A stretch of DNA of 64,000 nucleotides from Naegleria gruberi (Eukaryota), in NCBI GenBank assembly GCA_000004985.1, contig GG738856.1; one strand, 5' to 3'. This document shows positions 41,608-59,256 of this stretch, in pieces (positions within the stretch are counted from its first letter, which is position 1; each line of letters opens with the position of its first letter). A program made the position numbers and the translations under genes. The notes under the pieces were generated by a model, which made no database searches, was not told the DNA's origin, and saw nothing but the letters and a program-made list of their open reading frames with translations.

Positions 41608-43668
41608 CTATTCGTCTGCATTTATTAATGAGGGTGTTTGCATGATTTTAGAAAGATGTTCTGCAATATGAAATAGTGACGTTTGTTCTTTTTGAATGCT
41701 AGTCCACTCGTTTTCAATATATGCTGTTTTAGCAGACTCTGTAAAGAATGCCTTAGATGTGCAATTGGTTATAGTAATTAAGAAAAATAAAAGTTCTGCT
41801 TCGCTCCAATTCAATTCCAATATTTCAGTGAGATTTTTCAAAATTCTCACATTTACAATTTGGTTATTCAATATTAACACATCTCTTTCTTCCTTGATAC
41901 CTAACAAGCTAGCAAGCTTCTTATTCGATGTCCTAATTGTTAATCTAAGGTTCTCTGCACCAATATATTTAAGTGATGTGAATCCCATAAAATTAAAAAC
42001 GAGCTCGAGACTAGACTTGTTTGTTGCACCTAGGAGCTTATTAGAAACTGTTGGAACAACATTCATTCTAACTATACTATAATTTGTACTTTCAACACTA
42101 GAGCCCAGTAATTTGAATCTAACTTCTCTACCGAATACATTTGAAACATTTCTAATAATTCTTTCATATTCTTGACTGTTTCTTTGGTAATTAACAAGCC
42201 TTCTTGGAATCTCTAGTAGCTGTATATCACAGAGTAGTTGATTTGTCATGTTAATAAGTAAGTCTAATAAATAAATTTTTGTGGATTTGATATTTGTTAA
42301 TTCAAATACATATTGTTTGAGGAAAGTGGATGATACAAAGTCAATACTTCGGAATTCTTCTGTTGTTTCTCTAGTTGTTACTTGGCATTTTTGTATTGCT
42401 GATGGGAATGTTTGTAAATTATTTCTCTTATAGTTATAGTATTGTTCAATTACATTTTGACAAGTGTCCAAAGTTCCACACATTGCCAAAAATTGGAACA
42501 TTTCTGTTACGGACATCGATGTAGTATTAGTAATGACACCACTTAGTTGACAAAGCTTGTAAAGAATGATATCATTGAATTCGTACTTGCTTCCTGCCAT
42601 ATTTACAATAATTTGTCTTTCATTATTAGCCAAGTCTCCTGAGAGTCCTAAAAATGTTCCATATTTTGTAGAGTTTGTTCCTATAGACATTTGATATAAT
42701 GTCACTCGTTTCTTTTGTTGTTGATTTTGTAAAGTTGTGGCCATAAGGTTTTGGTGAATAAACACTTTTTGGTCAAGTTGTTGCAAATCAGGTATTAATT
42801 GAATTACAGAGGAAAATCCATAATTTTCTTCTCCTTTGATTTGTTCAAATTCAATAATTTGAAGTTTTCCTAGTAAAAATGTACACATTTCTTGATAATA
42901 TACATTTTGAAGTGAAATGGTATCGATTAATTGTCTAACCATTTTGTGTTTTTTAGTAAATTCTACTCTAGATGATAAAGGTATGCACATAAATATTCCA
43001 ACTGGTGGTATATCTGGTTTATCTTTTGGCTCCTCAATCGATGGTATAGTTGCTTTATGAAAAAGTTCGTTCAATAGTAATTGTATTCTACAACTTCGTG
43101 AAATAACTTGAACAGACCTCAAAAAGTTGTGTTGCTTTTTTTTCAAAATGTCAGCTGTGATTGTTTCGGTATTTGAACTTAACATTAAAACGCAAACTTG
43201 ATGATACCATTGAATAAATTGATTCATACTGAAAATATATGGCGAATGTTTTTTAGCCAGCTGATTGAAATGTTGTGAAACACAACTGAAGATAATAGCC
43301 GATGAATATGGAAGAAACACAAGAATTCTTTGATAAAGTTCCTCTCCCGAATCATGTGCTTGTGCGAACATCTTCACCAAAGGAATAATATGGTCAGAAG
43401 AACTTCCGTTATGACTCTTATTCTTTGGTGTTTTCCTAATAATATTTACTCCAGATATTGCCACATTAGAATCCACATTATTAAATGTTCCATTACTATT
43501 TGTATTATTATTTAAAAGTTGAAAGGCTTGATTAGATGAAGCATGAGCCATCATTGAATTAACAACTTGATCATCATCTTTTAATTGAATTAATTGAAAA
43601 AACAGCATTCCATAAATAATTAAATTCTCGGATATTTCTAGAGAGTGTTGTTTCAAAGATGACTCCAC
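41608..43668 (-). CDS. Hypothetical large protein (686 aa)
   Basis: Uninterrupted ORF, largely helical-looking. No family recognised. Confidence 0.5.
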   Translation of the reverse strand: MESSLKQHSLEISENLIIYGMLFFQLIQLKDDDQVVNSMMAHASSNQAFQLLNNNTNSNGTFNNVDSNVAISGVNIIRKTPKNKSHNGSSSDHIIPLVKMFAQAHDSGEELYQRILVFLPYSSAIIFSCVSQHFNQLAKKHSPYIFSMNQFIQWYHQVCVLMLSSNTETITADILKKKQHNFLRSVQVISRSCRIQLLLNELFHKATIPSIEEPKDKPDIPPVGIFMCIPLSSRVEFTKKHKMVRQLIDTISLQNVYYQEMCTFLLGKLQIIEFEQIKGEENYGFSSVIQLIPDLQQLDQKVFIHQNLMATTLQNQQQKKRVTLYQMSIGTNSTKYGTFLGLSGDLANNERQIIVNMAGSKYEFNDIILYKLCQLSGVITNTTSMSVTEMFQFLAMCGTLDTCQNVIEQYYNYKRNNLQTFPSAIQKCQVTTRETTEEFRSIDFVSSTFLKQYVFELTNIKSTKIYLLDLLINMTNQLLCDIQLLEIPRRLVNYQRNSQEYERIIRNVSNVFGREVRFKLLGSSVESTNYSIVRMNVVPTVSNKLLGATNKSSLELVFNFMGFTSLKYIGAENLRLTIRTSNKKLASLLGIKEERDVLILNNQIVNVRILKNLTEILELNWSEAELLFFLITITNCTSKAFFTESAKTAYIENEWTSIQKEQTSLFHIAEHLSKIMQTPSLINADE

Positions 43669-45959: not shown

Positions 45960-47042
45960 ATGAAACTAGAAACCCTTGCGTACATTTTGCACGAGTTGTG
46001 GGAACATTTTCTGTTAATACCCTGGTTTCTTCTCCTCACGCTCCGATATTCACTTTATTATTTTAATAATAATAGTGTTATTGGAAGATTTATTAACACA
46101 ACATCCCGATACTTTTTCAAAGATGTTAAATACGGAAAAGAGGAGAGCAATGTAATGGACATTTTTCCAGCCAAATCAGTAAAAATTGAAGATGGAAAAC
46201 ATAGAGTGTTATTATTTATTCATGGTGGTGGATGGGCATCAGGTAGGTTAATTGTTTGTCACACTCAAAATACAAATTGAATAGGAAATAAGCATATTTA
46301 TCATTATTTAGGAAAAAGGTAATTTTAAAATTGAATTTATTCTAAACTATTTCAAAGCTTGTCACAAAAATTCGAGGATTCTACAATAATTATCTGTAAT
46401 TACAGACTATGCCCAAAAGCATTCATTGAGGATCAAATGTGTGACATTAAAAAGTGTATTGAGTGGATTTATTCAGATTTGAATAATTATTTATTATCAA
46501 ACAACCTCTCACACTTATCAGATATAGCCAATACAGATATTGAGCTGACAGCATGTGGGCATTCAGCTGGTGGACATATTGTTTTAACAAGTATTTTGGA
46601 CGATCCATCTTTTGCAAAATACATCAAAAATCTCATTTGTCTTGCTGCAGTTTATGATTTGGAATCACAATATGAAAAAGAAAAGACTAGAGGAGTTGAA
46701 AAGATATCAGGTCTGTACAGAGTAATGAGAGGCGACTTGACCAAATATGCTCCTGTTGCAATATTGAAAAAGTCATCTCCCTTAGTACTCGAACAAATTC
46801 TCAACAATAACCCAGACCTTAGAATATCCATTCTTCATGGTCAAGAAGATACCACTGTAGATTTGTCATTTATACATGAATTTACTGATTTGTATCAGAA
46901 TTCTGAGTGTAGAAAGTGCCATTTTGCAAAGATCATTTTAGATGGTTTTAACCATACTGATTTTGTCAAACCCCTTATGAATATTAATTACCCACACAAA
47001 AAGGATCGCCTTTTGGATTTGCTCTCCTCAATAATACTGTAA
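45960..47042 (+). CDS. Esterase/lipase-fold protein, kynurenine formamidase (AFMID/Bna7)-like. Two exons: 45960..46246 and 46358..47042.
   Basis: HGGGW oxyanion motif (FIHGGGWASG), YxLxP (CNYRLCP), nucleophile elbow GHSAGG. 111-nt intron with a weak GTTAAT donor and CAAAG acceptor. This is the only acceptor that avoids stop codons. Confidence 0.6.
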
Positions 47043-47737
47043 ACCATTGAGAAATTGTAACCTTAGAGTAATAACACTTGAAGAGGAGTGTTTGTTTGCA
47101 AATGATTATTGTGTGTTACTCTAGAGTTGAATAAAAGATATTTTCCCTCTATTTCAAATCTTAATATGAAAATTCCGAACACAACGGGTCACTTTAGGTC
47201 TCTACTATACCACATGTTGTTGAGGATGATGAAATTAAACAAGGATTTGCAAGCACACAGCTTTTACATCTTCCCGATGAACTCAGAGTTATCGTAATCT
47301 ACATGATTCAACACAATCCAAGTGCGCCCACCAACAAGGATGATTGTTGTTGATTTTAAAAAAAATAAGGCGAATTATTGCTCTGTTGTGTTTTCTTACC
47401 ATCATCACCCTCTGAATAAATATCCGAGAGTATCTAAACCCCAATACACAAAGAAGAACTTATCATCAGTGTTACTTCTGAAAACAATATTTTGGATAGT
47501 TATAAACTAGTCTGATTATTCTCTGGTGATGAGTAAGGAGTTTTCTGAATTTATGACCAATAGTTCGAAAAGAGAAAGCAAAAGACATTTACTTGTCAGC
47601 ACTTCACCAACTATTGAACTTTCAGGAAATGATCTTCAAGAAACAAACAATATCGTAACTAGTGATGGTAGGATCTTTTTCATTTCTTCATTAATTAATC
47701 ATCCTTCTAAATAGACACTGTTACGTATGAAACAATC

Positions 47738-50700
47738 ATGGCAAAGTATACAGTTTCAGAAAAAGCTGCTACTGTAGAAGATAAAGATGCCATGACATCA
47801 CAAAAGGATCTTGATGAAATACATACAATGATCTATTGCAAACCATTGAAATTGAATTGGTTTCTATTAATTTTATATTATATTTTAGTGATTTGTTCAT
47901 TAGGATTATTACTTTTACTTTCAAGATGGTTTGAATGGTTAAAAACAAGAATGACACACTTGGAGTGCTCCAATGAAGAAGCACAAATGGTATTGATCAA
48001 GGTAAGTGGATAATATATCGGAATTAGTGTCACAACTGTCTATAGAGTGCCACTGGTGCTTTAACTGCCTGCCCTGTTCAAAAACACTTCATAGGAAATT
48101 ATAGTTCTAGCACATCATTTGTTTCCAGTATCAATATTTTTACTTACAGATTTGTCAAATATATCTATGATACTGATTCCGATAAATTTAGAAGATTACA
48201 ATTCAATACAGCTGTTCCATACACTACTGTTCATTCTGAATTTTCTACAGGACTTACATCACAAGCAAGAGTTTTGAGAAATATTTTATTTGGAAAGAAT
48301 TTGATTGAAATTCCTGTGAAGAATATTGTTTCATTGTTATTGGATGAAGTTTTGCACCCTTTCTATATTTTCCAAATTATTTCTGTAACTATTTGGTTAG
48401 CTGACGAATATTGGTCATACTCTGCCTGTATTATTGTTTCAGCTGTTGTATCAATTATTTTCAGTTTAATTGAAACTAAAAGAAATTTGACTAAATTGAG
48501 AGATATGGCCCACTATGCATGTGATTTAACTAGATATTCTAAACAAGGAGAAAAACAAGTTGTCTCATCCGAACAACTTGTACCAGGTGATGTAATTGAA
48601 TTAACAGATGGTATTCTGTTACCATGTGACGTTCTCCTTCTCTCTGGTCAATGTATTATGAACGAAGCCATGCTTACAGGAGAAAGTATTCCAATTGTTA
48701 AAACTCCACTGCCTAATGAAGGATCCACTAACTATTCTGTAGATGCTGACAAATCCTTTACCCTTTATTCGGGCACTCAAATTATGCAAATTCGTAAAAT
48801 TGGAGATGAGAAAGTCAAAGGTGTTGTTTGTAGAACTGGTTTTGATACGGCCAAAGGAAAATTAATTTTATCAATTCTTTTCCCAAAGCCATCCTCATTC
48901 AAGTTTTACAGAGATTCTCTCAATTTCGTTGGTTGCATGTTCGCTATTGGTTTGATTGGTATTGCTTATGCTATTATCAAACTTGCTGTCTCTGGAGTTC
49001 CTTGGGACAACATTATTCTCAGAGCTCTCGATGTTATCACTATTACTGTTCCGCCTGCCCTACCTGTGGCTATGACAACTGGTATGTCTTTTGCAGTGGC
49101 TAGACTTAAGAAAACCAAAATATTTTGCATTTCTCCTAACAGAGTTAATGTTGCTGGTATGATTAAGTTGATGTGCTTTGATAAGACTGGAACAATTACC
49201 ACAGAAGGCTTAGATCTTTATGGTGTTCACCCATTGGAGGATGCTGAATTTTCTGACATGATTGTTGAGGAATCAGTTACTGAAGCATTTAAGGATGTTA
49301 AAAATTTGAGCGAAAAGAAAAAGATGTTGCTTTACTCAATGGCATCATGTCATGCCTTGACCTATGTTAACTTTGAATTAGTCGGTGACCCTCTTGAAGT
49401 TAAAATTTTTGAAGCAACCCAATGGAAACTAAAGGAACCACAAGCTTCAGACTACATGTTTGAGACTCCAATTCCTACTGTTGTTCATCCACCTCATCAC
49501 AATCACCACAAGACAGAATTGACAGAATTGGAAGTTCAAAATATCGATATTACTAGTCTTCCATTTGAGCTTGGCATTCTTAAAAAGTTTGAATTTAAAT
49601 CATCATTACAAAGAATGTCAGTAATTATGAGAAATCTCCAAGAAGAAAAAACTTATGCCCTCGTTAAAGGCTCACCAGAAATGATGCAAAAATTATGCGT
49701 TCCTGAATCAATGCCAGCTGACTTCTCAAAAGTTCTTTACGAATATGCCCACAAAGGTTTCCGTGTTATTGCTTTTGGTTATAAGGAATTGGATCAACCA
49801 TGGAAAAATCTTCAAAGAGCATCAAGAGAAGAAATTGAAAGTGATTTGACATTCATTGGTTTTGTTTGTATGCAAAACAAAATGAAACCAGACTCTAAGA
49901 AGGTTATTACCTCTCTCAATGAAGCTGGTATCAAAAGTGTCATGGTAACTGGTGACAATCCATTTACTGCCATCTCTGTTTCTAGACAATGTGGAATTGC
50001 CAAACCTGCTGGTAAAGTTTATTTGGGTGAACTTAAGGAATCTCACTATGGTGCATCATCTAATCAACATTATATTGACTGGAAGAATGTAGATGGTGAG
50101 GACAGATTAGATCCTGACAGTCTTACACCAATAGACACCAATGACTATGCTCCTTACGAATTGGCAATCACTGGTGGAGTTTTTGAACGACTTGTTAAGG
50201 ACCATACTTTAAAGATTGAATTATCTGGAAGTACTACATATGTAAATATCGATTCTCCATCTCTGCTTCACAGAGTTTTACTTGGATGTAAGATATTTGC
50301 TAGATTCACTCCTGACCAAAAGATGAGACTTGTTGAAGAATATCAAAAACTTGAATACTTTGTTGGTATGTGTGGAGATGGTGCCAACGATGCTGGTGCT
50401 TTGAAAGCTGCTCATGTTGGTATTTCATTGAGTGAGGCTGAAGCTTCCATTGCTGCTCCATTTACAAGTTTGAAACCGACAATTGCTTGTGTTCCAAAGG
50501 TCATCAAAGAAGGAAAAGCTGCATTGGCTACTAGTTTCCAAATGTTCAAATTTATGATGGTTTACAGTTTGATACAATTCTTTACTGTCATCCTCTTGTA
50601 TGATATCAATAGTAATCTTGGTGATAATCAATTTTTATGGGTTGATGGTGTTGTCATCTTTACTATGGCCCTTCTCATGGGTAGAACTGGTTCAAATAAG

Positions 50701-51430
50701 AAACTTGTTAGAGATAAGCCTTCTGCCTCATTGGTATCTCGTGAAGTCTTTTTTTCCATGGGATTCCAAATTCTTATTACCGTAATTAGTCAAATTATTA
50801 TTTGGAATAATATCAAAGTTCAAGGATTTTTCACTCCTCTTGATCCTGAACCAGAAACCAAAAAGAATATCAGATGTTATGAAACCACTGCCATGTTCTT
50901 GCTTTCTACATTCTTTACATATAATGCTGGTTTGTCATACAGTATTTCCAAACCATTCAAGAAACCTGTTTATAGAAATAGTAAGTATTTAAAGAAATAT
51001 TTTGAATTTTTTAACAATTAATTTAGAGCTCTACTTTGGACTTTTGGTTTTACTTTTTGGCATTCTCACCTACTGTTTCCTGATGCCTGACTATTATTTG
51101 AGTTGGTTCTTGTATATTAGAAGTATGCCAGTATACTATCGTTTCATTCTCTTTGGTGTCGCATTAATTCACATGGCCATCAGTTATAGCTTTGAAAGAT
51201 TCTTCATTCTTGGACCAGGTGTGAAGTGGTTGAGAGTGTTTTCAATCCGTCCTTTGAAACGTCTCTATTATTATTTGAGAGGACGTAACACAAGAATCTC
51301 CAAGAAGAGAAGACTCTATTCTAAATTGAAAGAAGCAATCAATGAAAGAGGAAGAACATTTGCCTCCACATTCTCTGAAAAGGATAGCTTCACTCAAACT
51401 AAGAGTTTTGGAGGTGTAGAATTAGTTTAA
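47738..51430 (+). CDS. P5B-type P-type ATPase (ATP13A2/Ypk9-like), ~1200 aa. Three exons: 47738..48001, 48046..50980, 51027..51430.
   Basis: DKTGTIT phosphorylation site. GDGANDAGALKAAHVGISLS hinge. PPALP in M4 marks it as P5B rather than P5A (PPELP). N-terminal hairpin (AQMVLIK) and C-terminal TM helices are recovered by 44-nt and 46-nt introns (GTAAGT..CTATAG and GTAAGT..AATTTAG). Confidence 0.85.
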
Positions 51431-51523
51431 AATTCTCAAATATTTGAAGTATTCCAATAAAATTCGTGTTTTCTTTACAAAATATTCTAAATACCATTTT
51501 GCCGCCTTCCTGTTTTCTCTTGA

Positions 51524-52274
51524 TTGAAAAAAATGAGTCAACAAAGAGTTAAAGACGAAAAGCCTTCCACAACAAGTGTGAGAGCAAATTTTGTTCGGGT
51601 TTCCGATTTGCAGAAAAATGGAGGCTCTGGAATTGATTATAAGAATTTATTTGGTCACAAGAAGACTGCATCCTCTTCTTCATCATCTTCCGTAAAAGCC
51701 TCTTCTTCATCAATTGAAAAAAAGAAGCCTTCCCGATCATCAACAAGTAGTACAACAACATCAAAAACAGAAAAGAAAAAAGCACCCGTTAAAAGAAAAT
51801 ATAAATCTAGAAATTCTGAACCTGTCAAAAAGGTTGAAAAAGGTGACAAACTCAAATGGATAACAAGAAAAGGAAAGAAATATGTATCTTATAATGGAAA
51901 GAAATATAGTGGAAAAAAAGGTATAGTTAAATTGTTATACATTCTCATTAAATCATTAAGCTTTTCAAATTTACAAAGAGTGGAAGGAAGTAAATGGAGA
52001 AGCATCAGATGAATCAGACAATGAGCAATCAGATGAAGAATATGTTCCGCCAAAGAAAAAGACTAAAAAGGAACCAAAAGAAAAGAAAGTTGAAGAAACT
52101 AAACCAAAACTCAAATTAAAAAAGAAAGAAATTGACTCTCAAGCAATTACCATTGATAAATTCTTTAAAAAAGAGGCTAAAGTGGAAACAATTGAAATTG
52201 AATCGGAAGACGAAATTGAATCATTCAGTACTGGAGATGAATTTGAGGATGATGTTGTGGAAATCATTGACTAA
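51524..52274 (+). CDS. Lys/Ser-rich protein with an acidic C-terminal tail (~230 aa), probably nuclear or chromatin-associated. Two exons: 51524..51920 and 51979..52274.
   Basis: The second exon has no start codon but continues in frame after a 58-nt intron (weak GTATAG donor, ACAAAG acceptor). S-rich, then KKYVSYNGKKY..., then SDESDNEQSDEEYVPPKKKTKK.... Confidence 0.45.
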
Positions 52275-52285
52275 TTTATTATTGA

Positions 52286-53777
52286 TTAAGAAATAACTCT
52301 TTCATTTCTTAATATCTGTAGTATTGCTTGCTTTGTCTCCTTATAATCTATTAGATTCATAACAAGGGTCTTCTTGTAAGATATTGTTGGAGGTATATGA
52401 GATAGATACATATTTTGGATGTATTGTATTGACTTTTGAACAATCCATCCTCTATTTTTGTAATACACTTTGAATATATTGTTTTCTTCATCAATAGAAT
52501 CAAGCTGATTTCTTGTCATTTCTTCAAATGTTTTCATAGCAAATCTATAGCTAATATGTGGGTGGTGATATTTACACAAATTGTACCAAACATTTTCTCT
52601 ATTTGCTGCTTTGTTGAATTGCTTACATGATTGCATGACTGAAAACAAATCATATGGATTCAAAAACTTGAAAATTTCTGAGAGCATGTCTTCATTCATG
52701 TTGGTTGAAGGAATTTGATTGACTTCTATTGAAGAGTTATTTGATTTTCCAAAATTAATGAATGGTTTGATTGGTTCAACACCCTCTATCATGAATCCAT
52801 TTAAAATCTTGCTTTCCAATAAGTCTACCTTGCTAAATATTATATACAATGGTATGTTAGAGGGGAAATTCCCATCAGATATTGTTTTCTTGAAGCAGCT
52901 CAATGAATCTGTCAATCTATTCAATGAATCATCTTTAAACTATTAACTTTGAAATTTGAATTAATTTACCAACCTTCAAAACAAAACTGATTAAATTCTG
53001 ATAATGAAATAACATAAATTAAACATCCCAACTTGTGTTCAAATATATATTTCCACTCTTTCCAAGATTTAAATATTCAATTTTGAATTCATAATGCACT
53101 TACTTTTCCTTCCACACCTCTGACCTTCAGAATCAAGAATAACCACAGTTCGATTCTCAACTAAGTTCGACTTGATTATGTATTCAGGTATTCCAGTTGT
53201 CTGTTAAGATACATTCTTCAATAACTATTGAAATCAACTGAAACTTACCATCCAATATGATTCCAAATCTTCCTGTAATCCAATATCAAGATTTTGAATA
53301 GAATCCACTTTTCTCAATAGACTTTCAAAATTTTCCAAAGGAAACTGATATCTGTGACGATTACTATATGCCAAGTGAATGTTGGGAGTGGTAAAGAATG
53401 GAATGAATTTCCTTATTGCCTCATAATCCGAATCGATATTATTACTAAGATATTGATTATCCAACTCTGTATTTAAAATACTAGCCATAGCATTCTTCAT
53501 CATGTAATATAGTATCCGCCTTAATTCTTCTCTATCAAACTCTGTTAGCGAGTACTTGTTCAATGCTGATTTGAAATTTTTCACAAGTGTACTTTTACCA
53601 CCTTCCCCTAATAAACGTTTAGAGAATTATCACTTAATCGAACAACCTACCAGTCCCAATTATTCCCACACAAAACGGATTCATTTCTACTCTGTTTACT
53701 TCATCAATAACGTCATTATCGCTCATTGACGAAGAATCATCATTATCAAATGATGATGAAGAGTTATGTTGACCCAT
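52286..53777 (-). CDS. Heterotrimeric G-protein alpha-subunit-like protein fused to a C-terminal F-box (~437 aa). Five exons: 53777..53651, 53607..53249, 53200..53104, 53057..52974, 52932..52286.
   Basis: MGQHNSS (N-myristoylation consensus). P-loop GTGEGGKST assembled across intron 1. Helical-domain tail ...LQEDLESYWM|TTGI (switch I). DSEGQ in place of DVGGQ. KWKYIFE...CLIYVISLSEFNQ (cf. KWIHCFE..AIIFCVALSDYD). NRLTDSLSCF...IPLYIIFSKVDLLESKI (cf. NRMHESMKLF...ILFLNKKDLFEEKI). After that the G5 region is absent and an F-box follows (LSEIFKFLNPYDLFSVMQSCKQFNKAANRENVWYNLC). Introns are 43, 48, 46 and 41 nt. Confidence 0.7.
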
Positions 53778-53857
53778 TTTGTTTTAAAAATGTATTTTAA
53801 GGTTTGTTATTTGAATAAAATACCTTAATTTTTTATTTAGTGTTTCCGTAAAGAGAT

Positions 53858-55263
53858 TTAAAGAGTCAATTGGCTACCTTCAATCTTTGCCTTTTGATAT
53901 TTGGTACTAACCCATCCATCTTGGTTAGTTTCAAATCCAACATGGCCTATGTCTTGCCATTTTCCATTAGCAACCAAAGGTCCCTTAATTTGGAGAGTAC
54001 CGTCAACAATCTTAACTTCAGTATTGTCAACAAGTTGTCCGTTAATTGTCAAAACTCCTGATGATTCTTCTAATCCAGAAACAACCAAAGTGTTTGTGAC
54101 TTGTGGTAACTTTTGTTTAATCAAAGCAAGAGCAGTAGTAGAATCAAATCCAAGAGGAGCACAAATAACAACATTCTTCAAATCATCATAAGTATTCTTT
54201 GAGAAATCAGCATGATTCAATAAATCATCCAAATCTTGTGGTTCAGTGAAGAGAGTAGTACACTTTTCCTTTGACAAGAGAGAAAGTGTAGTAGCAATAT
54301 TGTATTCTTCAGATGGATAAACAATAACACCACCAGAAACAAAGGAGGCAAAGTTGCCCAAAATAGCTCCGGATGGAGTTGTAGAGTATTTTGGAACCAT
54401 AACACGGTCACCTTGTTTCAAGTTAAGAGCCTTAGCAACTGTAGAACCAGCGTTGAGGAGATTCTTGTGTGAATAAACAGTGGTGGTAGCCTTGTCTGGA
54501 TTCTTGTCATTAAATAAAATCAAACTTGGGTTATTTGGTTCCAATTCCATAGCAATTCTACGGAGAGGAGATTCATAGTATCCAAATGGACCATAAACCA
54601 AAACATCCTTCAATTGATAAGTTCCTTCTTTTGGCTTTTCCTTGATATCAGTGAAAAGAATTTGTTTACAGAATGGGAACTTTTTAGACTTGAATGGAAG
54701 ATGTAATTCTGACAAACTTAATTCTGGAACAACTTCTCTGATCATTTTGTAGTAGTTTCTGTTTCCGATCTTTGTAGATGATACCAAAACTCTTGGTCTA
54801 ACTAATTCCATGAATCGACTAGTTTATGTTAATGATATCATATCAACAACAATAACACTTACGTCATATCTTTGGCTGTTTTAATTTCTGGGAGAGGAAC
54901 CAAGATAGCACCAATCTTTGCACAAGCAAGGAGAGTAACAAGTTGTTCGGCGTTCATTCCTTGATTCAAAGCCAATCTATCACCAGGTCTAAGACCCATT
55001 TCAGTTAATCCACAAGCCAAAGCTTCCACATGTTTCTGAATTATAATAAATTTGTTAATTTTCTACTATTTAAATTTTCATCAATACTCACTTTAAGAGT
55101 AGAATATGACCAGTTGACGTTTTGGTGAGTACACTTCAAAGCATTGGCGTGAGGCATTTCTCTGGCATTTTGTGAGAGTTGGTATCCAATTGTAGTGTTG
55201 ATTTGTTGAGACTCAGCTCCCTTCAAATAAGTGGAAGCGAATCTTGTTTGTGCTGTAAATCCT
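53858..55263 (-). CDS. ANL-superfamily (AMP-binding / acyl-CoA-synthetase-like) protein, degenerate and C-terminally truncated. Exons: 55263..55092, 55035..54863, 54818..53858, plus a probable short 5' exon near 55412..55455.
   Basis: Colinear with 4-coumarate/acyl-CoA ligases (GDRVMVP..., NVVICAPLG, SGLEESSG for YGxTE, EVKIVD, QDIGHVG for TGDxG). The TSGTTGxPKG P-loop is replaced by DKATTTVYSH. The ORF stops immediately after the hinge. Introns 55 and 44 nt. The exon at 55263 starts in phase 2 with no ATG. An upstream ATG (MLTRVAKNLQKRS..., presequence-like) could splice in. Confidence 0.6.
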
Positions 55264-55779: not shown

Positions 55780-58700
55780 ATGACAAGCAAGAAGAAGAAG
55801 GCTTCATCTTCGTCATCAACAACATCGTCATCACATGAAGAGGAATCATCAACAACAAAAAATAATATTATGGAGGATGATGCGGGTACTTCTAGTAATA
55901 ATAACAACAACAAGAAACACAAATCAAGTAAACGTAAAAAAAATTCTGATGAAAGTGTAGTGGATGAAGTAAAAAAGACACCTCTCAAAGTGAAAATTAA
56001 ACTGGGTGATACTGAAACAACAGTAGATCCTCTCGAACCTGAAAAGAGAAAGAAGAAGAGAGAATCTAAAAAATCCGATCAAAAATCACTTGTTTCAACA
56101 CTTATTACCCTTTTGGACAAACTTTTCAAGGCAGATAAGAAACAGAACTTCTGGTATGCTGTTCCCGAAAAAGAAAAACAGTACTATCAAGTCATTGATA
56201 ATCCTATGGATTTATCTTCAATTCAAGCAAAATTACTTCTTGGAAAGTACTCTTCAATTGGTAAATTTAGACAAGATCTAGACATTATTCACAACAATGC
56301 AGAAAAGTTTAATGGACAAGCTTCCCCAATTTTCAAGGCTGCAGAAAGGTTGAAATCAATTTATACAAAAGAACTTTCAGCTTACTCCGATTCGGATCCA
56401 ATAGTAACACCTCTCACAAATGACGATAGTACAGTAGAAGAATGTATGATACAGATTATAGATGCTCTTAAATATGAAGATTCTTATTCCATTTTCCATG
56501 AACCAGTCCCAAAGGAAGTTCCAAATTACTATGAGACTATCAAAAAACCAATGGATTTTGCCACTTTGAAGAAGAAGGTGACAGATCATAAGCTTTCCAT
56601 TTCTAAGTTTGAAAAGTACATGTTACGTATTTTTTCTAATGCAACAAAGTTCAACCTTCCAGATACTCTCTACTATGCAGAAGCTGTAAGAATTTCAAAA
56701 CTTTCTACTGAGCTGGTAGAGAAGCTTAAATCAAAATTCTCCTCTGAATCAAAACCAACTGTCACTATCACTGTAAAGGAGCCGCAACCAGAAGAGAAAA
56801 AAGAGAAAAAGTCAAAGAAAAAGAAAGAAGACAAAAAAGTCGAGAAGGAAGAAAAAGAAAAGAAATCAAAGAAAAAGAAAGAAAAAGAAGAAAAAAAGGA
56901 AGAAGTTAAAGTAGAACCTATTGTAGAAGAACCTTTTATTGATTTGAATGATACAGGATCTATGAGCGACGATGTTAAAACACCTAAGAAATCTTCCTCT
57001 GATAAAAAGAAAACTCCTAAGACAAAATCGACTACAAAATGGAAGGATCGTGTACGTATTACAGACTTAGATTTTCCAGATTTGGAGGACACACCTTTGT
57101 ATTCTCTTCTTGAATTAGTTTGGAAAAAACTAATGTCTATAGACGAATATTTAATATTTAAAGATCCTGTATCCAAAGATGTACCAAATTACCATAATAC
57201 AATTAAAACCCCAATGGATTTAACAACCATTAAGGGAAAAATAGATGATAAGAAATATACTAAGTGGCGAGAATTTGAAGATGATGTTGATCTTGTATAT
57301 GATAATTGCAAAACTTTTAACTCTCAAGATTCTATATATTCAAAAGAAGCTAACAGACAGCATAGATGGTTCAGAAAATGGAAGAAAGATATGGTGACTC
57401 ACTTTGGCAAGATTGAGGTTGCCGATCTTTCTGAAAAAGTTGTTTGTGACTATTTTAACGAGATATCTGTTGTTAAGACACACGCACCAAAGTATGATGT
57501 TACTCTTTTGAATACAATGGAAGAAGCAGAAGAGGAGACAACATTACCAAAAACTTCTCTTTGCTATCACCTTCTCAAAATTACAGAAGAGCTTAAAAAA
57601 CACGACAAGAACAAATACTTTTGGGAGAGTGTTGACGAAAGCGTTCATCCAAACTATAGTAACCAAATCAAACATTCTATTTGTTTATCAATGATAGCCA
57701 GTAATTGTAACAACAAACATTACAAGACTATTGATCAATTTATTAATGATATTGATCTCTTACATACTAATACTTCTACTTTCTTCTCTCCAAACTCTAA
57801 AGAAGCAAAAGAATCAAAAGCCTTATTGAATCTGGCTAAAGAAAAAGCACAACCTTTGAGAATTAAGACTTTCAAAGATGGTCCAACTTCTGCCAATAGT
57901 TCCAGTACAAACACTACAACACCAAAAACAAGGAGAGAAACTAGGGCATCAAGTTCACTTTTGGATGATATTGATAATTTTCTTGATATGGATGAAAAGG
58001 ATGATTTATTATCTAATGTGAAATCCGATAAAAAGAAGAAACCTTTAGCAAGTGCCTCTAAACCAAAAAGACGAAGACCAGTAAGCACTGCTGCAACAAA
58101 TCCATATAATAAGGATATTGAATTAGGATGGGTGCCACATATTCATAATTGTGCATACTGGCAATTCCCATCCTATTTGCCTGATCCTAATCCAGAAAAT
58201 AGACCTAAATCAATTGAATCCAATCATGATGCAACTCAATCATTCATTGATCCAGCATCCCTATCTAGCTCGTACAGTAGAGGTGATGATGAATCAAACT
58301 CATCTCAAGATGAAAGTGCTCCAAAACCAAAGAAAGAGAAAAAAGAAAAGGAAAAGACTCAAAAAATCACTTCCAATTCATCCGACATTGTTATTCCACA
58401 AAACATTTCAACATCAAAAACACCTAAGACCACCAAGAAGGAAAAGAATGTCACTATTCCACACACACCAACCTTAAATATCTCAGTTCCCCCATTCACC
58501 TCACCAAATTTATTCTCTCAATCAGCCACTGGTTCTAAATCAACTGCTCCACCTCAGGTTGTACATTTAACTACTGTTGAAAATAGACCACTTCCAAAGT
58601 ATTCCTATATCATCAAAAAGTATCGACAAAATTTATCTATTAACAAACCTAAAATTGATTTGAATCAACTCAAGACTATGAATCTTTCGGATTGTATGAA

Positions 58701-59256
58701 ACTCTTCTCAGATGATGAAAGATCAGTTTCTGAAATCGTTGAAGCAATGAAACAAAAACCAGATACCATACCAACAGATAATCTTTTATATGGACTTTCA
58801 GGCTTTAAGGACATTAGCCCAGAAGATGATGAACTCATTCAAAAGTTGGTCAAGATTGCTACCAAAGATGGAGGATTCAAGATGGATTCACACTTTGATA
58901 AGGCTTCACGTAATAATTCTTCACCAAAAGCTTCACTTTCATCAAAACATGTTGAAAAGGACATCATGGATGAAGATGATGACGACGATGAGGATGATGA
59001 GGAAGAAGAAAATGATTTGTCTGACATTGAAGATTTTGATGAGGAATTCGACCATAAGAAGGAAAAGTACACAGAAGAAGCTGATATGGATGATGACGAC
59101 GATGAATTTGTTGAGGGTGATGTTATGGAGAGAGTTTTGCAAGATTTTGAAACAGTTACCTTCCCAAGTACTAGAAGAAGTACTCCCGAAGAATTGTTCA
59201 AGAAGGTCAAACAAACACTCATGGATGAAGGTGTTAATATCTTTGAAGATGAATAA
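55780..59256 (+). CDS. Multi-bromodomain protein (4 bromodomains, polybromo/RSC-like) with K/E-rich and acidic low-complexity regions
   Basis: Four bromodomain signatures, e.g. FWYAVPEKEKQYYQVIDNPMDLSSIQAKL...NAEKFN and YLIFKDPVSKDVPNYHNTIKTPMDLTTIKGKI...CKTFN. Single 1158-aa ORF. Confidence 0.8.
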   Translation: MTSKKKKASSSSSTTSSSHEEESSTTKNNIMEDDAGTSSNNNNNKKHKSSKRKKNSDESVVDEVKKTPLKVKIKLGDTETTVDPLEPEKRKKKRESKKSDQKSLVSTLITLLDKLFKADKKQNFWYAVPEKEKQYYQVIDNPMDLSSIQAKLLLGKYSSIGKFRQDLDIIHNNAEKFNGQASPIFKAAERLKSIYTKELSAYSDSDPIVTPLTNDDSTVEECMIQIIDALKYEDSYSIFHEPVPKEVPNYYETIKKPMDFATLKKKVTDHKLSISKFEKYMLRIFSNATKFNLPDTLYYAEAVRISKLSTELVEKLKSKFSSESKPTVTITVKEPQPEEKKEKKSKKKKEDKKVEKEEKEKKSKKKKEKEEKKEEVKVEPIVEEPFIDLNDTGSMSDDVKTPKKSSSDKKKTPKTKSTTKWKDRVRITDLDFPDLEDTPLYSLLELVWKKLMSIDEYLIFKDPVSKDVPNYHNTIKTPMDLTTIKGKIDDKKYTKWREFEDDVDLVYDNCKTFNSQDSIYSKEANRQHRWFRKWKKDMVTHFGKIEVADLSEKVVCDYFNEISVVKTHAPKYDVTLLNTMEEAEEETTLPKTSLCYHLLKITEELKKHDKNKYFWESVDESVHPNYSNQIKHSICLSMIASNCNNKHYKTIDQFINDIDLLHTNTSTFFSPNSKEAKESKALLNLAKEKAQPLRIKTFKDGPTSANSSSTNTTTPKTRRETRASSSLLDDIDNFLDMDEKDDLLSNVKSDKKKKPLASASKPKRRRPVSTAATNPYNKDIELGWVPHIHNCAYWQFPSYLPDPNPENRPKSIESNHDATQSFIDPASLSSSYSRGDDESNSSQDESAPKPKKEKKEKEKTQKITSNSSDIVIPQNISTSKTPKTTKKEKNVTIPHTPTLNISVPPFTSPNLFSQSATGSKSTAPPQVVHLTTVENRPLPKYSYIIKKYRQNLSINKPKIDLNQLKTMNLSDCMKLFSDDERSVSEIVEAMKQKPDTIPTDNLLYGLSGFKDISPEDDELIQKLVKIATKDGGFKMDSHFDKASRNNSSPKASLSSKHVEKDIMDEDDDDDEDDEEEENDLSDIEDFDEEFDHKKEKYTEEADMDDDDDEFVEGDVMERVLQDFETVTFPSTRRSTPEELFKKVKQTLMDEGVNIFEDE

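What the first reader, a model, noticed from the sequence alone, without database searches (positions are those of the whole stretch)
52286..53777. Galpha-like GTPase with degenerate G3–G5 motifs fused in frame to a C-terminal F-box
The five-exon minus-strand gene encodes a clear Galpha N-terminus. It has the myristoylation signal MGxxxS, the P-loop GTGEGGKST, the helical domain and the switch-I TTGI motif. G3 is DSEGQ instead of DVGGQ and G4 is SKVD instead of NKKD. The G5/TCATDT region and C-terminal receptor-contact helix are replaced by ~180 aa containing a textbook F-box (LSEIFKFLNPYDLFSVMQSCKQFNKAANRENVWYNL). The fusion lies within a single exon with no stop, so it is not an annotation join. 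I do not know of a described protein that couples a Galpha fold to an SCF-recruiting F-box. It could link G-protein state to ubiquitination, or be a pseudo-GTPase substrate adaptor.
Basis: partly seen in the sequence, partly recalled or inferred. Interest (0 to 1): 0.75.

Follow-up and report, generated by a model that had tools for sequence, protein, structure and literature searches.

The report
G-protein alpha with nested F-box
This is a real, conserved gene of a Naegleria-type amoeba that encodes a G-protein alpha subunit with an F-box (the module that docks proteins onto SCF ubiquitin ligases) inserted inside its GTPase domain; a 2021 Naegleria genome paper already noted this odd architecture, but nobody has studied what it does.

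Summary
The five-exon minus-strand gene (53777..52286, 437 aa) is real. All four introns, the reading frame and the gene neighbourhood are conserved in three other Naegleria genomes, and dN/dS is 0.19 overall (0.06 in the F-box). Pfam supports both G-alpha (E=3e-33) and F-box (E=2.5e-9).

The F-box does not replace the C-terminus. A ~119-aa block (linker, F-box, extra helices) is inserted in the alphaG-alpha4 loop, and alpha4, beta6, a decayed G5 and alpha5 follow it. Multiple alignment, HHalign (E=6e-6) and an AlphaFold model of the N. lovaniensis ortholog (pLDDT 86) agree.

The architecture is not new. Herman et al. 2021 (BMC Biol, Supplementary Material 4) report Naegleria "Gpa18", a G-alpha with the F-box "nested within the GTPase domain". 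The window gene belongs to a second, paralogous clade (Naegleria, Willaertia). In that clade the switch-I arginine is Tyr and, within Naegleria, G3 is DxEGQ. This species has additionally degraded G1, G4 and G5.

The most likely function, inferred and not shown, is a myristoylated, GTPase-impaired G-alpha acting as the substrate-recognition or regulatory module of an SCF ubiquitin ligase. I rate it a new member of a known but uncharacterised kind.

The parts
52286..53777 (-). Whole gene: 5 exons (53777-53651, 53607-53249, 53200-53104, 53057-52974, 52932-52286 including the stop) and 4 introns of 43, 48, 46 and 41 nt. Product is 437 aa.
   Evidence: splice model, in frame. (the same four intron positions and phases in N. 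lovaniensis and L002; exon indels are all multiples of 3; exons 72% identical against 52% for introns).
53760..53777 (-). MGQHNS, an N-myristoylation-type start (Gly2, Ser6).
   Evidence: The MGQ start is conserved in L002, N. lovaniensis, N. fowleri and Willaertia. Lipidation itself is inferred.
53588..53657 (-). G1 / P-loop GTGEGGKST (aa 41-49), split by intron 1. Ser45 to Gly is a change specific to this species.
53261..53554 (-). All-helical domain of G-alpha (about aa 61-158).
   Evidence: Pfam G-alpha spans aa 33-270. (helices 67-158 in the ortholog model).
53189..53266 (-). Switch I / G2, LESYWMTTGI (aa 157-166), split by intron 2. The Mg-binding Thr163 is kept. The catalytic Arg (Galpha-i1 R178) is Tyr160.
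   Evidence: Tyr in window, L002, N. lovaniensis, N. fowleri and Willaertia; Arg in mg16, Galpha-i1 and the A. kona G-alpha.
53041..53134 (-). G3 plus switch II, DSEGQRCGRKKWKYIF (aa 185-200), split by intron 3. Gln189 is kept. The third position of G3 is Glu instead of Gly.
52823..52834 (-). G4, SKVD (aa 256-259). Asn to Ser is specific to this species, and Asp is kept.
   Evidence: L002 has NKAD; N. lovaniensis and N. fowleri have NKVD.
52700..52801 (-). Poorly conserved linker (aa 267-300) that starts the insertion in the alphaG-alpha4 loop.
   Evidence: dN/dS 1.76 for aa 276-297. (pLDDT below 50 at the equivalent ortholog residues 287-291).
52574..52702 (-). F-box (aa 300-342).
   Evidence: PF12937 and PF00646 both above their cut-offs. 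(dN/dS 0.06). (pLDDT 85-90; structural neighbours are Skp1-bound F-box proteins, with 38-46 residues superposed at 1.0-1.4 A).
52445..52576 (-). Family-specific helical segment after the F-box (aa 342-385), ending in the conserved YYKxxG motif.
   Evidence: the Tyr is invariant. (three helices, 355-385, in the ortholog model).
52289..52444 (-). C-terminal piece of the Ras-like domain: alpha4 (aa 386-402), beta6 plus degenerate G5 'MNLI' (aa 409-419), and alpha5 (aa 420-437).
   Evidence: alignment. (HHalign to Galpha-i1 291-348, E=5.9e-6). (structure).

Best explanation
The gene encodes a membrane-anchored (probably N-myristoylated), atypical G-alpha subunit. An F-box has been inserted into the alphaG-alpha4 surface loop of its Ras-like domain.

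The F-box most likely binds Skp1 and so plugs the G-alpha into an SCF (Skp1-Cul1-Rbx1) ubiquitin ligase. The G-alpha body is the only other folded module, and its switch II and switch III are well conserved. It would serve as the substrate-recognition or regulatory domain, presenting whatever binds its switch face for ubiquitination.

In this clade the switch-I catalytic arginine is Tyr, and in Naegleria G3 is DxEGQ. The protein is therefore probably a poor GTPase, locked in one state rather than cycling. In this particular species G1, G4 and G5 have decayed further, pointing towards a nucleotide-independent pseudo-GTPase adaptor.

Shown here: the gene model, the domain identities, the nested topology, conservation and selection. 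Inferred: Skp1/SCF binding, myristoylation, nucleotide state and the substrates.
For: Gene and topology.

F-box function:
- Both Pfam F-box models score above their curated cut-offs.
- The F-box is the most constrained part of the gene (dN/dS 0.06).
- The F-box is retained in every member of two paralogous clades.
- The predicted fold superposes on Skp1-bound F-boxes of Skp2, SLY1, FBXO31 and Fbw7 at 1.0-1.4 A over 38-46 residues.

G-alpha as the working module:
- Switch II (GQRxxRKKW) and switch III (CYEDDxxNR) are conserved.
- dN/dS is about 0.1 in the Ras-like parts.
- No other domain is present.

GTPase impairment:
- Arg178 is Tyr in all five members of the clade, and G3 has Gly to Glu in the four Naegleria sequences.
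- Four of the 20 changes derived on the window branch hit G1, G4 or G5.

Literature: Herman et al. 2021 independently proposed GTPase-dependent ubiquitination for Naegleria GTPase-F-box and GTPase-BTB fusions. Vargova et al. 2021 note recurrent ARF-family fusions to F-box and BTB domains.

Analogy from general knowledge: RhoBTB proteins are atypical, non-cycling Rho domains fused to BTB domains and act as Cul3 adaptors.
Against: - No binding, expression or nucleotide data exist for any member.
- The family lacks the hallmark Leu-Pro at the start of the F-box (window M-N; relatives L-S, L-D or L-N).
- The Foldseek E-values for the insert are weak (0.03 or higher) because the domain is small.
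- The F-box is embedded between two parts of another domain, an arrangement not known for characterised F-box proteins, and its accessibility to Skp1 in that context was not tested.
- The gene evolves fast (36% identity to N. lovaniensis against 60-89% for its neighbours; dN 0.22 against 0.01-0.09). This could reflect weak functional constraint on the G-alpha surface.
- The SCF core of Naegleria was not examined here (one search found no relevant paper).
Confidence: 0.5

Rival explanations
1. Built-in degron or timer. The protein signals like an ordinary G-alpha, and the nested F-box recruits SCF mainly to ubiquitinate the G-alpha itself (autoubiquitination, as happens to many F-box proteins). 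The result would be a short-lived, abundance-controlled G-alpha rather than a substrate adaptor.
For: The switch regions are conserved. From general knowledge (not tested here), yeast Gpa1 is a substrate of SCF-Cdc4, and F-box proteins are commonly turned over by autoubiquitination. The fast-evolving, disordered linker (dN/dS 1.76; low pLDDT) could carry the acceptor lysines.
Against: The catalytic Arg is lost and the window species has eroded G1, G4 and G5, which argues against ordinary G-protein cycling. The N-terminal region is short, acidic and Ser-rich, and is not predicted as a confident alphaN helix for G-beta-gamma binding. A degron would not need a complete, strongly constrained F-box fold.
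Confidence: 0.15
2. The insert is F-box-derived but no longer works through SCF. Either it binds Skp1 in a non-SCF complex (as Rcy1, the RAVE complex and Ctf13 do in yeast), or it has become a structural or protein-interaction lid on the G-alpha with a different partner.
For: The Leu-Pro motif is missing in the whole family. The F-box is followed by a family-specific conserved helical segment (YYKxxG, KNLEFM) that packs with confident pLDDT next to alpha4, which suggests an integrated module. The structural matches are only locally significant.
Against: Both Pfam F-box models pass their curated thresholds in nearly all members. The F-box has the lowest dN/dS in the gene. Naegleria has many other GTPase-F-box and GTPase-BTB fusions, which points to a common ubiquitin-ligase logic.
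Confidence: 0.2
3. Artefact or pseudogene. The G-alpha part and the F-box part would be two genes or a decaying relic, and the fusion would exist only in the conceptual translation.
For: No transcript data were available. Automatic annotations disagree with one another: N. fowleri RefSeq XP_044561452.1 is a 298-aa truncated model, and ORF callers report the F-box part alone (P0010, 167 aa).
Against: The four introns are conserved in position and phase in three genomes. Exon indels are always multiples of three, and dN/dS is 0.19. Synteny is conserved. The segment after the F-box is an integral piece of the G-alpha fold, so the two halves cannot be separate proteins. The same nested architecture occurs as intronless single ORFs in unrelated contigs (L003 and L005).
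Confidence: 0.03

Closest known systems
Naegleria 'Gpa18' (Herman et al. 2021, BMC Biol 19:142, Additional File 4 and Table S8; N. gruberi XP_002678171.1 corrected model, N. fowleri V212 g10873.t1)
   Same: A G-alpha subunit with an F-box nested inside the GTPase domain, leaving a small C-terminal G-alpha fragment after it. Same genus. Same proposed link to ubiquitination.
   Different: The published N. gruberi sequence is a paralog, not the ortholog. It is 29-31% identical to the window and L002 proteins in the G-alpha core. It clusters with the metagenomic members that keep DTGGQRNERKKW, and it has a longer basic linker. The window clade has Tyr for the switch-I Arg and, in Naegleria, DxEGQ. 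I could not establish whether N. fowleri g10873 is the ortholog of the window gene.
Canonical heterotrimeric G-alpha subunits (Pfam PF00503; best solved matches are G-alpha-11/q and 6ne6 'G-protein alpha subunit Galpha7')
   Same: Ras-like plus helical domain architecture, P-loop, switch I Thr, switch II Gln, switch II and III sequences, MGxxxS start.
   Different: A ~119-aa insertion in the alphaG-alpha4 loop. The catalytic Arg is lost. G3 has Gly to Glu. G4 and G5 are degenerate in this species. There is no convincing alphaN helix.
F-box proteins (SCF substrate receptors; PF00646 and PF12937), for example Skp2, Fbw7 and SLY1
   Same: A ~40-residue three-helix F-box with the conserved L..L..I/F..L....L and VW signature, and a predicted fold that matches Skp1-bound F-boxes.
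   Different: The F-box is internal to another domain instead of lying N-terminal to a WD40, LRR or other substrate-binding domain. The Leu-Pro motif is absent.
RhoBTB proteins and other GTPase-E3 fusions: TRIM23/ARD1 (from general knowledge); Naegleria Rab-, Rho- and Ran-F-box proteins; ARF-family BTB and F-box fusions
   Same: A GTPase domain, often atypical and non-cycling, covalently coupled to a cullin-adaptor or E3 module. This is the closest analogy for how the protein would work.
   Different: The GTPase class differs (heterotrimeric-type G-alpha with a helical domain). The adaptor module is nested inside the GTPase fold rather than appended. It would use the cullin-1 route rather than the cullin-3 route.

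Membership tests
G-alpha subunit (PF00503) | Profile HMM score above the curated gathering threshold | tested here: met
   115.6 bits against 48.8, E=3.4e-33, aa 33-270 on profile positions 20-271 of 333.
G-alpha subunit (PF00503) | Ras-like domain with an all-helical domain inserted between G1 and switch I, completed by alpha4-beta6-G5-alpha5 | tested here: met
   Alignment. AlphaFold model of the ortholog, pLDDT 85.7. Foldseek TM up to 0.81 to Galpha-i1 over ~425 columns. HHalign of the tail to Galpha-i1 291-348, E=5.9e-6.
G-alpha subunit (PF00503) | G1 P-loop GxxxxGK[ST], switch-I Thr, G3 DxxGQ with the catalytic Gln | tested here: met
   GTGEGGKST, Thr163, DSEGQ with Gln189. The third residue of G3 is Glu instead of Gly.
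G-alpha subunit (PF00503) | Switch-I catalytic arginine (Galpha-i1 R178) | tested here: not met
   Tyr160 in the window. Tyr also in L002, N. lovaniensis, N. fowleri and Willaertia.
G-alpha subunit (PF00503) | G4 NKxD and G5 TCA(T) guanine-recognition motifs | tested here: not met
   SKVD and MNLI in the window. Close relatives have NKAD/NKVD and TSAT/TNAL, so the loss is specific to this species.
G-alpha subunit (PF00503) | Heterotrimer formation with G-beta-gamma through alphaN and switch II, and GTP binding and hydrolysis | not testable with these tools
   The N-terminal 33 aa are acidic and Ser-rich, and the equivalent ortholog residues 1-30 have pLDDT below 50. Biochemistry is needed.
F-box protein (PF00646 / PF12937) | Profile HMM scores above the curated thresholds | tested here: met
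   PF12937: 37.2 against 24.3. PF00646: 32.1 against 20.5. The same holds for most relatives.
F-box protein (PF00646 / PF12937) | Three-helix F-box fold | tested here: met
   Prediction only. The window fragment model has pLDDT 85-90 over the F-box. Its neighbours are Skp1-bound F-box proteins at 1.0-1.4 A over 38-46 residues, but with weak E-values.
F-box protein (PF00646 / PF12937) | Conserved Leu-Pro at the start of helix 1 | tested here: not met
   Met-Asn in the window. Leu followed by Ser, Asp or Asn in relatives.
F-box protein (PF00646 / PF12937) | Binding to Skp1 and assembly into SCF | not testable with these tools
   No complex prediction or interaction data were available.
Naegleria Gpa18-type G-alpha with nested F-box (Herman et al. 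2021) | F-box nested inside the G-alpha GTPase domain with a short C-terminal G-alpha fragment after it | tested here: met
   compared with the description.
Naegleria Gpa18-type G-alpha with nested F-box (Herman et al. 2021) | Orthology to the published N. gruberi Gpa18 (XP_002678171.1, corrected model) | tested here: not met
   31% identity in the G-alpha core. A neighbour-joining tree puts it in a separate clade: published Gpa18 groups with mg13, mg15 and mg16, while the window groups with L002, N. lovaniensis, N. fowleri and Willaertia. Only the first 399 aa of the published sequence were available.

The most novel reading that the evidence does not exclude
G-alpha proteins with a nested F-box form an old, multi-lineage family: two paralogous clades in Heterolobosea plus members on unassigned eukaryotic metagenome contigs. 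In this family a heterotrimeric-type G-alpha switch is itself the substrate receptor of a cullin-RING ligase, so nucleotide state directly gates who gets ubiquitinated. The window clade would represent a later stage in which the switch has been frozen (Arg to Tyr, DxEGQ, then loss of G4 and G5) into a constitutive pseudo-GTPase adaptor.
Probability: 0.3. Interest if true: 0.7.

Novelty: new member of a known kind. Interest (0 to 1): 0.45.

Why it matters
If the nested F-box really docks onto Skp1, these proteins would be a direct, hard-wired link between G-alpha-type switching and cullin-RING ubiquitination. No such link has been studied experimentally for heterotrimeric-type G proteins.

The family also offers a natural series from members with near-canonical GTPase motifs (the metagenomic members, the published Gpa18 and Willaertia), through L002, to a decayed pseudo-GTPase in this window. 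That series is useful for asking which G-alpha functions survive without nucleotide cycling.

Naegleria includes the lethal pathogen N. fowleri, which has the ortholog. G-protein components have been proposed as drug targets there (PMC9283941).

In practice, the gene is mis-modelled or named only 'hypothetical' or 'F-box domain-containing' in public annotations. The correct architecture is worth recording.

Tried and rejected
- BLASTP of the 65-aa tail against Galpha-i1 gave nothing significant. The relationship only emerged with a family alignment and a profile-profile comparison.
- The spliced 437-aa protein could not be submitted to the exhaustive HMMER search or to structure prediction. 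I used the exon-5 translation, the N. lovaniensis ortholog and family alignments instead.
- The third word-indexed homolog search, with a family profile, recovered only P0010.
- The AlphaFold-database Foldseek library was unavailable, so named AFDB homologs could not be listed.
- Anantharaman et al. 2011 (Gene 475:63) on G-alpha architectures is not held, so I do not know whether it mentions this fusion.
- Exact look-ups of two neighbouring ORFs and of my spliced models found nothing. The species of the window is therefore not identified beyond 'a Naegleria close to the source of SRR25266747, distinct from N. lovaniensis and N. fowleri'.
- I first took the sharp identity drop at the ATG for a divergence island in this gene. 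dS of further neighbours showed that the baseline is about 0.65 and that the upstream AMP-binding gene is the unusually conserved one.
- Pfam on three other N. gruberi G-alpha sequences with an F-box-like C-terminal motif was inconclusive, because the table truncates them.
- The relative-rate test for acceleration on the window branch was not significant (20 vs 11, p=0.15).
Full report
**1. What is in the sequence**

The window is AT-rich (33.6% GC) eukaryotic DNA with very short introns. On the minus strand, an ATG at 53777 opens a five-exon gene: 53777-53651, 53607-53249, 53200-53104, 53057-52974 and 52932-52286. The four GT..AG introns are 43, 48, 46 and 41 nt long. Splicing gives a 1314-nt in-frame CDS and a 437-aa product. 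Retaining intron 1 runs into a stop codon.

Pfam supports both domains well above their curated cut-offs:
- G-alpha PF00503: 115.6 bits against 48.8, E=3.4e-33, aa 33-270.
- F-box-like PF12937: 37.2 against 24.3, E=2.5e-9, aa 304-342.
- F-box PF00646: 32.1 against 20.5.

By sequence, the best solved relatives are G-alpha-11/q and 6ne6, 'G-protein alpha subunit Galpha7' (E around 1e-18).

**2. The gene model holds up comparatively**

A Naegleria lovaniensis protein (C9374_000666, 444 aa) matches over 98% of the length at 36% identity and carries the same Pfam pair. Its locus is colinear with the window over about 20 kb: the AMP-binding gene and the ~1150-aa bromodomain gene lie upstream, with ribosomal protein S24e beyond them, and aspartyl-tRNA synthetase lies downstream. 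Its four introns sit at exactly the same codon positions and phases as in my model.

A much closer genome, a Logan assembly of SRR25266747 (L002), has the same neighbours and the same four introns. There, exon indels are all multiples of three, and exons are 72% identical against 52% for introns.

Nei-Gojobori dN/dS between the window and L002 is 0.19 overall. By region it is 0.06 in the F-box, about 0.1 in the Ras-like parts, 0.17 in the helical domain and 0.2 in the tail. Only the ~22-aa linker before the F-box looks unconstrained (1.76). This is a functional gene, not a pseudogene or an annotation join.

N. fowleri has the ortholog too (CAG4711970.1, 448 aa). Its RefSeq model XP_044561452.1 is a truncated 298-aa 'F-box domain-containing protein'.

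**3. The topology is an insertion, not a C-terminal replacement**

An exhaustive HMMER search with a profile of the C-terminal half found 38 hits. These include full-length proteins from Willaertia magna (KAL9652580.1) and from several unassigned eukaryotic contigs. All of them have G-alpha plus an F-box plus the same conserved tail.

Four lines of evidence agree on where the F-box sits:
- Aligned with Galpha-i1 and an Acrasis kona G-alpha, the family shows a block inserted between the end of the alphaG-alpha4 loop and alpha4. That stretch is 113 residues in the window and 9 in canonical G-alpha. After it, the tail aligns with alpha4 (SIQYIQNMY to AAAYIQCQF), beta6, G5 and alpha5. One member even keeps TCAIGD.
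- HHalign of the family tails against a canonical G-alpha profile places them on Galpha-i1 291-348 (probability 85%, E=5.9e-6).
- An AlphaFold2 model of the N. lovaniensis ortholog, built with the family alignment, is confident (pLDDT 85.7, pTM 0.83). It shows alphaG, a disordered linker, the F-box helices, three further helices, and then helix-strand-helix.
- Foldseek aligns ~425 columns of that model to ~315-residue Galpha-i/s/q chains, with target-normalised TM up to 0.81.

For the window's own sequence, a fragment model gives pLDDT 85-90 over the F-box. Almost all of its structural neighbours are F-box proteins solved with Skp1 (Skp2, SLY1, FBXO31, Fbw7 and others), with 38-46 residues superposed at 1.0-1.4 A. 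The E-values are weak because the domain is so small.

The nested topology is itself the strongest argument that one polypeptide is made, because the tail cannot fold without the N-terminal part.

**4. State of the GTPase machinery**

Conserved in the window protein:
- the P-loop lysine and serine/threonine;
- the switch-I Thr163;
- Asp, Gly and Gln of G3;
- switch II (GQRxxRKKW) and switch III;
- the Asp of G4.

Changed at three levels:
- **Whole clade** (window, L002, N. lovaniensis, N. fowleri, Willaertia): the switch-I catalytic arginine is Tyr.
- **All four Naegleria sequences**: the third residue of G3 is Glu instead of Gly.
- **The window species only**: S45G in G1, N256S in G4, and T414M and A416L in G5. 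L002 has GESGKTT, NKAD and TSAT.

With the three other species as outgroups, 20 changes are derived on the window branch and 11 on the L002 branch (p=0.15). Four of the 20 fall in G1, G4 or G5. This is a post-hoc observation.

The N-terminal ~33 aa are acidic and Ser-rich, and are not predicted as a confident alphaN helix.

I infer a protein that hydrolyses GTP poorly or not at all. In this species it may bind guanine nucleotide weakly.

**5. What is already known**

Text searches combining Naegleria, G-alpha and F-box found no paper describing the fusion in main text. The Bosch et al. study of N. fowleri G-alpha subunits does not mention it.

However, Herman et al. 2021 (PMC8296547) cover it in Additional File 4. 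[quoted passage not shown] The Figure S7 legend says the C-terminal part of 'Gpa18' was found by manual alignment. Table S8 lists 'Gpa18, G alpha ... with F-box domain' (N. fowleri V212 g10873.t1; N. gruberi XP_002678171.1). The architecture is therefore on record, although only in a supplement and without any analysis of motifs, structure or function.

The published N. gruberi sequence (first 399 aa available) is not the window protein. It is 31% identical in the G-alpha core, keeps DTGGQRNERKKW, and groups with the metagenomic members mg13, mg15 and mg16. The window groups with L002, N. lovaniensis, N. fowleri and Willaertia. There are thus at least two paralogous nested-F-box G-alpha clades, and the window gene belongs to the one not shown in that table for N. 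gruberi. I could not determine which clade N. fowleri g10873 belongs to.

**6. Mechanism**

The best-supported reading (confidence about 0.5) has three parts:
- Myristoylation puts the protein on a membrane.
- The nested F-box recruits Skp1-Cul1-Rbx1.
- The G-alpha body, with conserved switch II and III but a disabled catalytic site, is the recognition or regulatory module that brings a partner to the ligase.

The closest working analogy is RhoBTB, an atypical Rho domain fused to a Cul3-binding BTB domain (general knowledge), together with the other Naegleria GTPase-F-box and GTPase-BTB fusions.

The rivals are:
- self-directed SCF recruitment as a turnover device (0.15);
- an F-box-derived module that no longer uses SCF (0.2). 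This is supported mainly by the family-wide absence of the Leu-Pro motif and by the integrated helical extension after the F-box;
- artefact or pseudogene (0.03).

None of Skp1 binding, lipidation, nucleotide state or substrates has been tested by me or, as far as I could find, by anyone.

**7. Verdict**

What this analysis adds:
- the exact insertion site (the alphaG-alpha4 loop), with structural support;
- the existence of two paralogous clades, and of relatives outside Naegleria (Willaertia and unassigned eukaryotic contigs);
- the clade-wide Arg-to-Tyr change, and the stepwise decay of nucleotide-binding motifs ending in this species;
- the selection profile, with the F-box as the most constrained part.

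I rate it a new member of a known but functionally unexplored kind, with interest 0.45.

Noticed in passing
window 53771-55263 (AMP-binding gene 53861-54811 minus strand, plus the ~80-bp intergenic region upstream of the G-alpha ATG): This stretch is 94-99% identical to L002 and has dS 0.19. Other neighbours (P-type ATPase, AspRS, the downstream ORF) have dS 0.62-0.68, and the G-alpha-F-box gene is only 58-75% identical. The switch happens exactly at the ATG. The AMP-binding gene is an unexplained island of low synonymous divergence. Possible causes are recent gene conversion or introgression, or strong codon or RNA-level constraint.
   Followed up: partly
window 41611-43668, minus strand: A 686-aa ORF with a weak F-box hit (PF00646, 21.8 bits against a cut-off of 20.5, aa 110-145). 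It matches the 770-aa gene at the end of the N. lovaniensis locus L001. So there is a second F-box candidate within 10 kb.
   Followed up: no
L001 12523-17940 compared with window ~46000-51500: There is a synteny break. N. lovaniensis has four genes here (an F-box-like protein of 382 aa, TANGO2, a prenyltransferase and a 415-aa protein). The window and L002 instead carry a P-type (P5-like) ATPase at 48274-51018, and L002 also has WD40 ORFs.
   Followed up: no
N. fowleri proteins P0047 (XP_044561452.1, 298 aa) and P0048 (CAG4711970.1, 448 aa): The RefSeq model joins the start of the P-loop ('LFLGS') directly to 'EWVNAF', skipping the helical domain and switches I and II. As a result it is named only 'F-box domain-containing protein'. 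This looks like a mis-annotation of the ortholog.
   Followed up: partly
Herman et al. 2021 Table S8, N. gruberi sheet: XP_002676336.1*, XP_002671039.1* (flagged 'LRRs'), XP_002678776.1*: These are complete G-alpha proteins with C-terminal extensions beginning '...WTARPLLEDEILQISNFLELDDLLNM...', which resembles the start of an F-box followed by LRRs. They may represent a second kind of G-alpha-F-box(-LRR) fusion. The table truncates the sequences, so Pfam could not confirm it.
   Followed up: partly
L005 (Logan SRR8449811 contig, 1882 nt): One uninterrupted 600-aa nested-F-box G-alpha ORF with only ~40 nt on each side. The contig ends in an Illumina adapter (AGATCGGAAGAGCGTCGTGTAGGGA). It looks like a transcript-derived contig with untrimmed adapter. 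The organism is unknown.
   Followed up: partly
window 52274-52286: The gene is tail-to-tail with a plus-strand ORF whose acidic C-terminus (...EDEIESFSTGDEFEDDVVEIID) ends at 52274, 12 nt before this gene's stop codon. That is a very tight convergent arrangement, and N. lovaniensis has the same arrangement.
   Followed up: no
window 55780-59253, plus strand: A 1158-aa single-exon ORF with four bromodomain matches (PF00439, E=1.2e-73). It is conserved and syntenic in N. lovaniensis.
   Followed up: no
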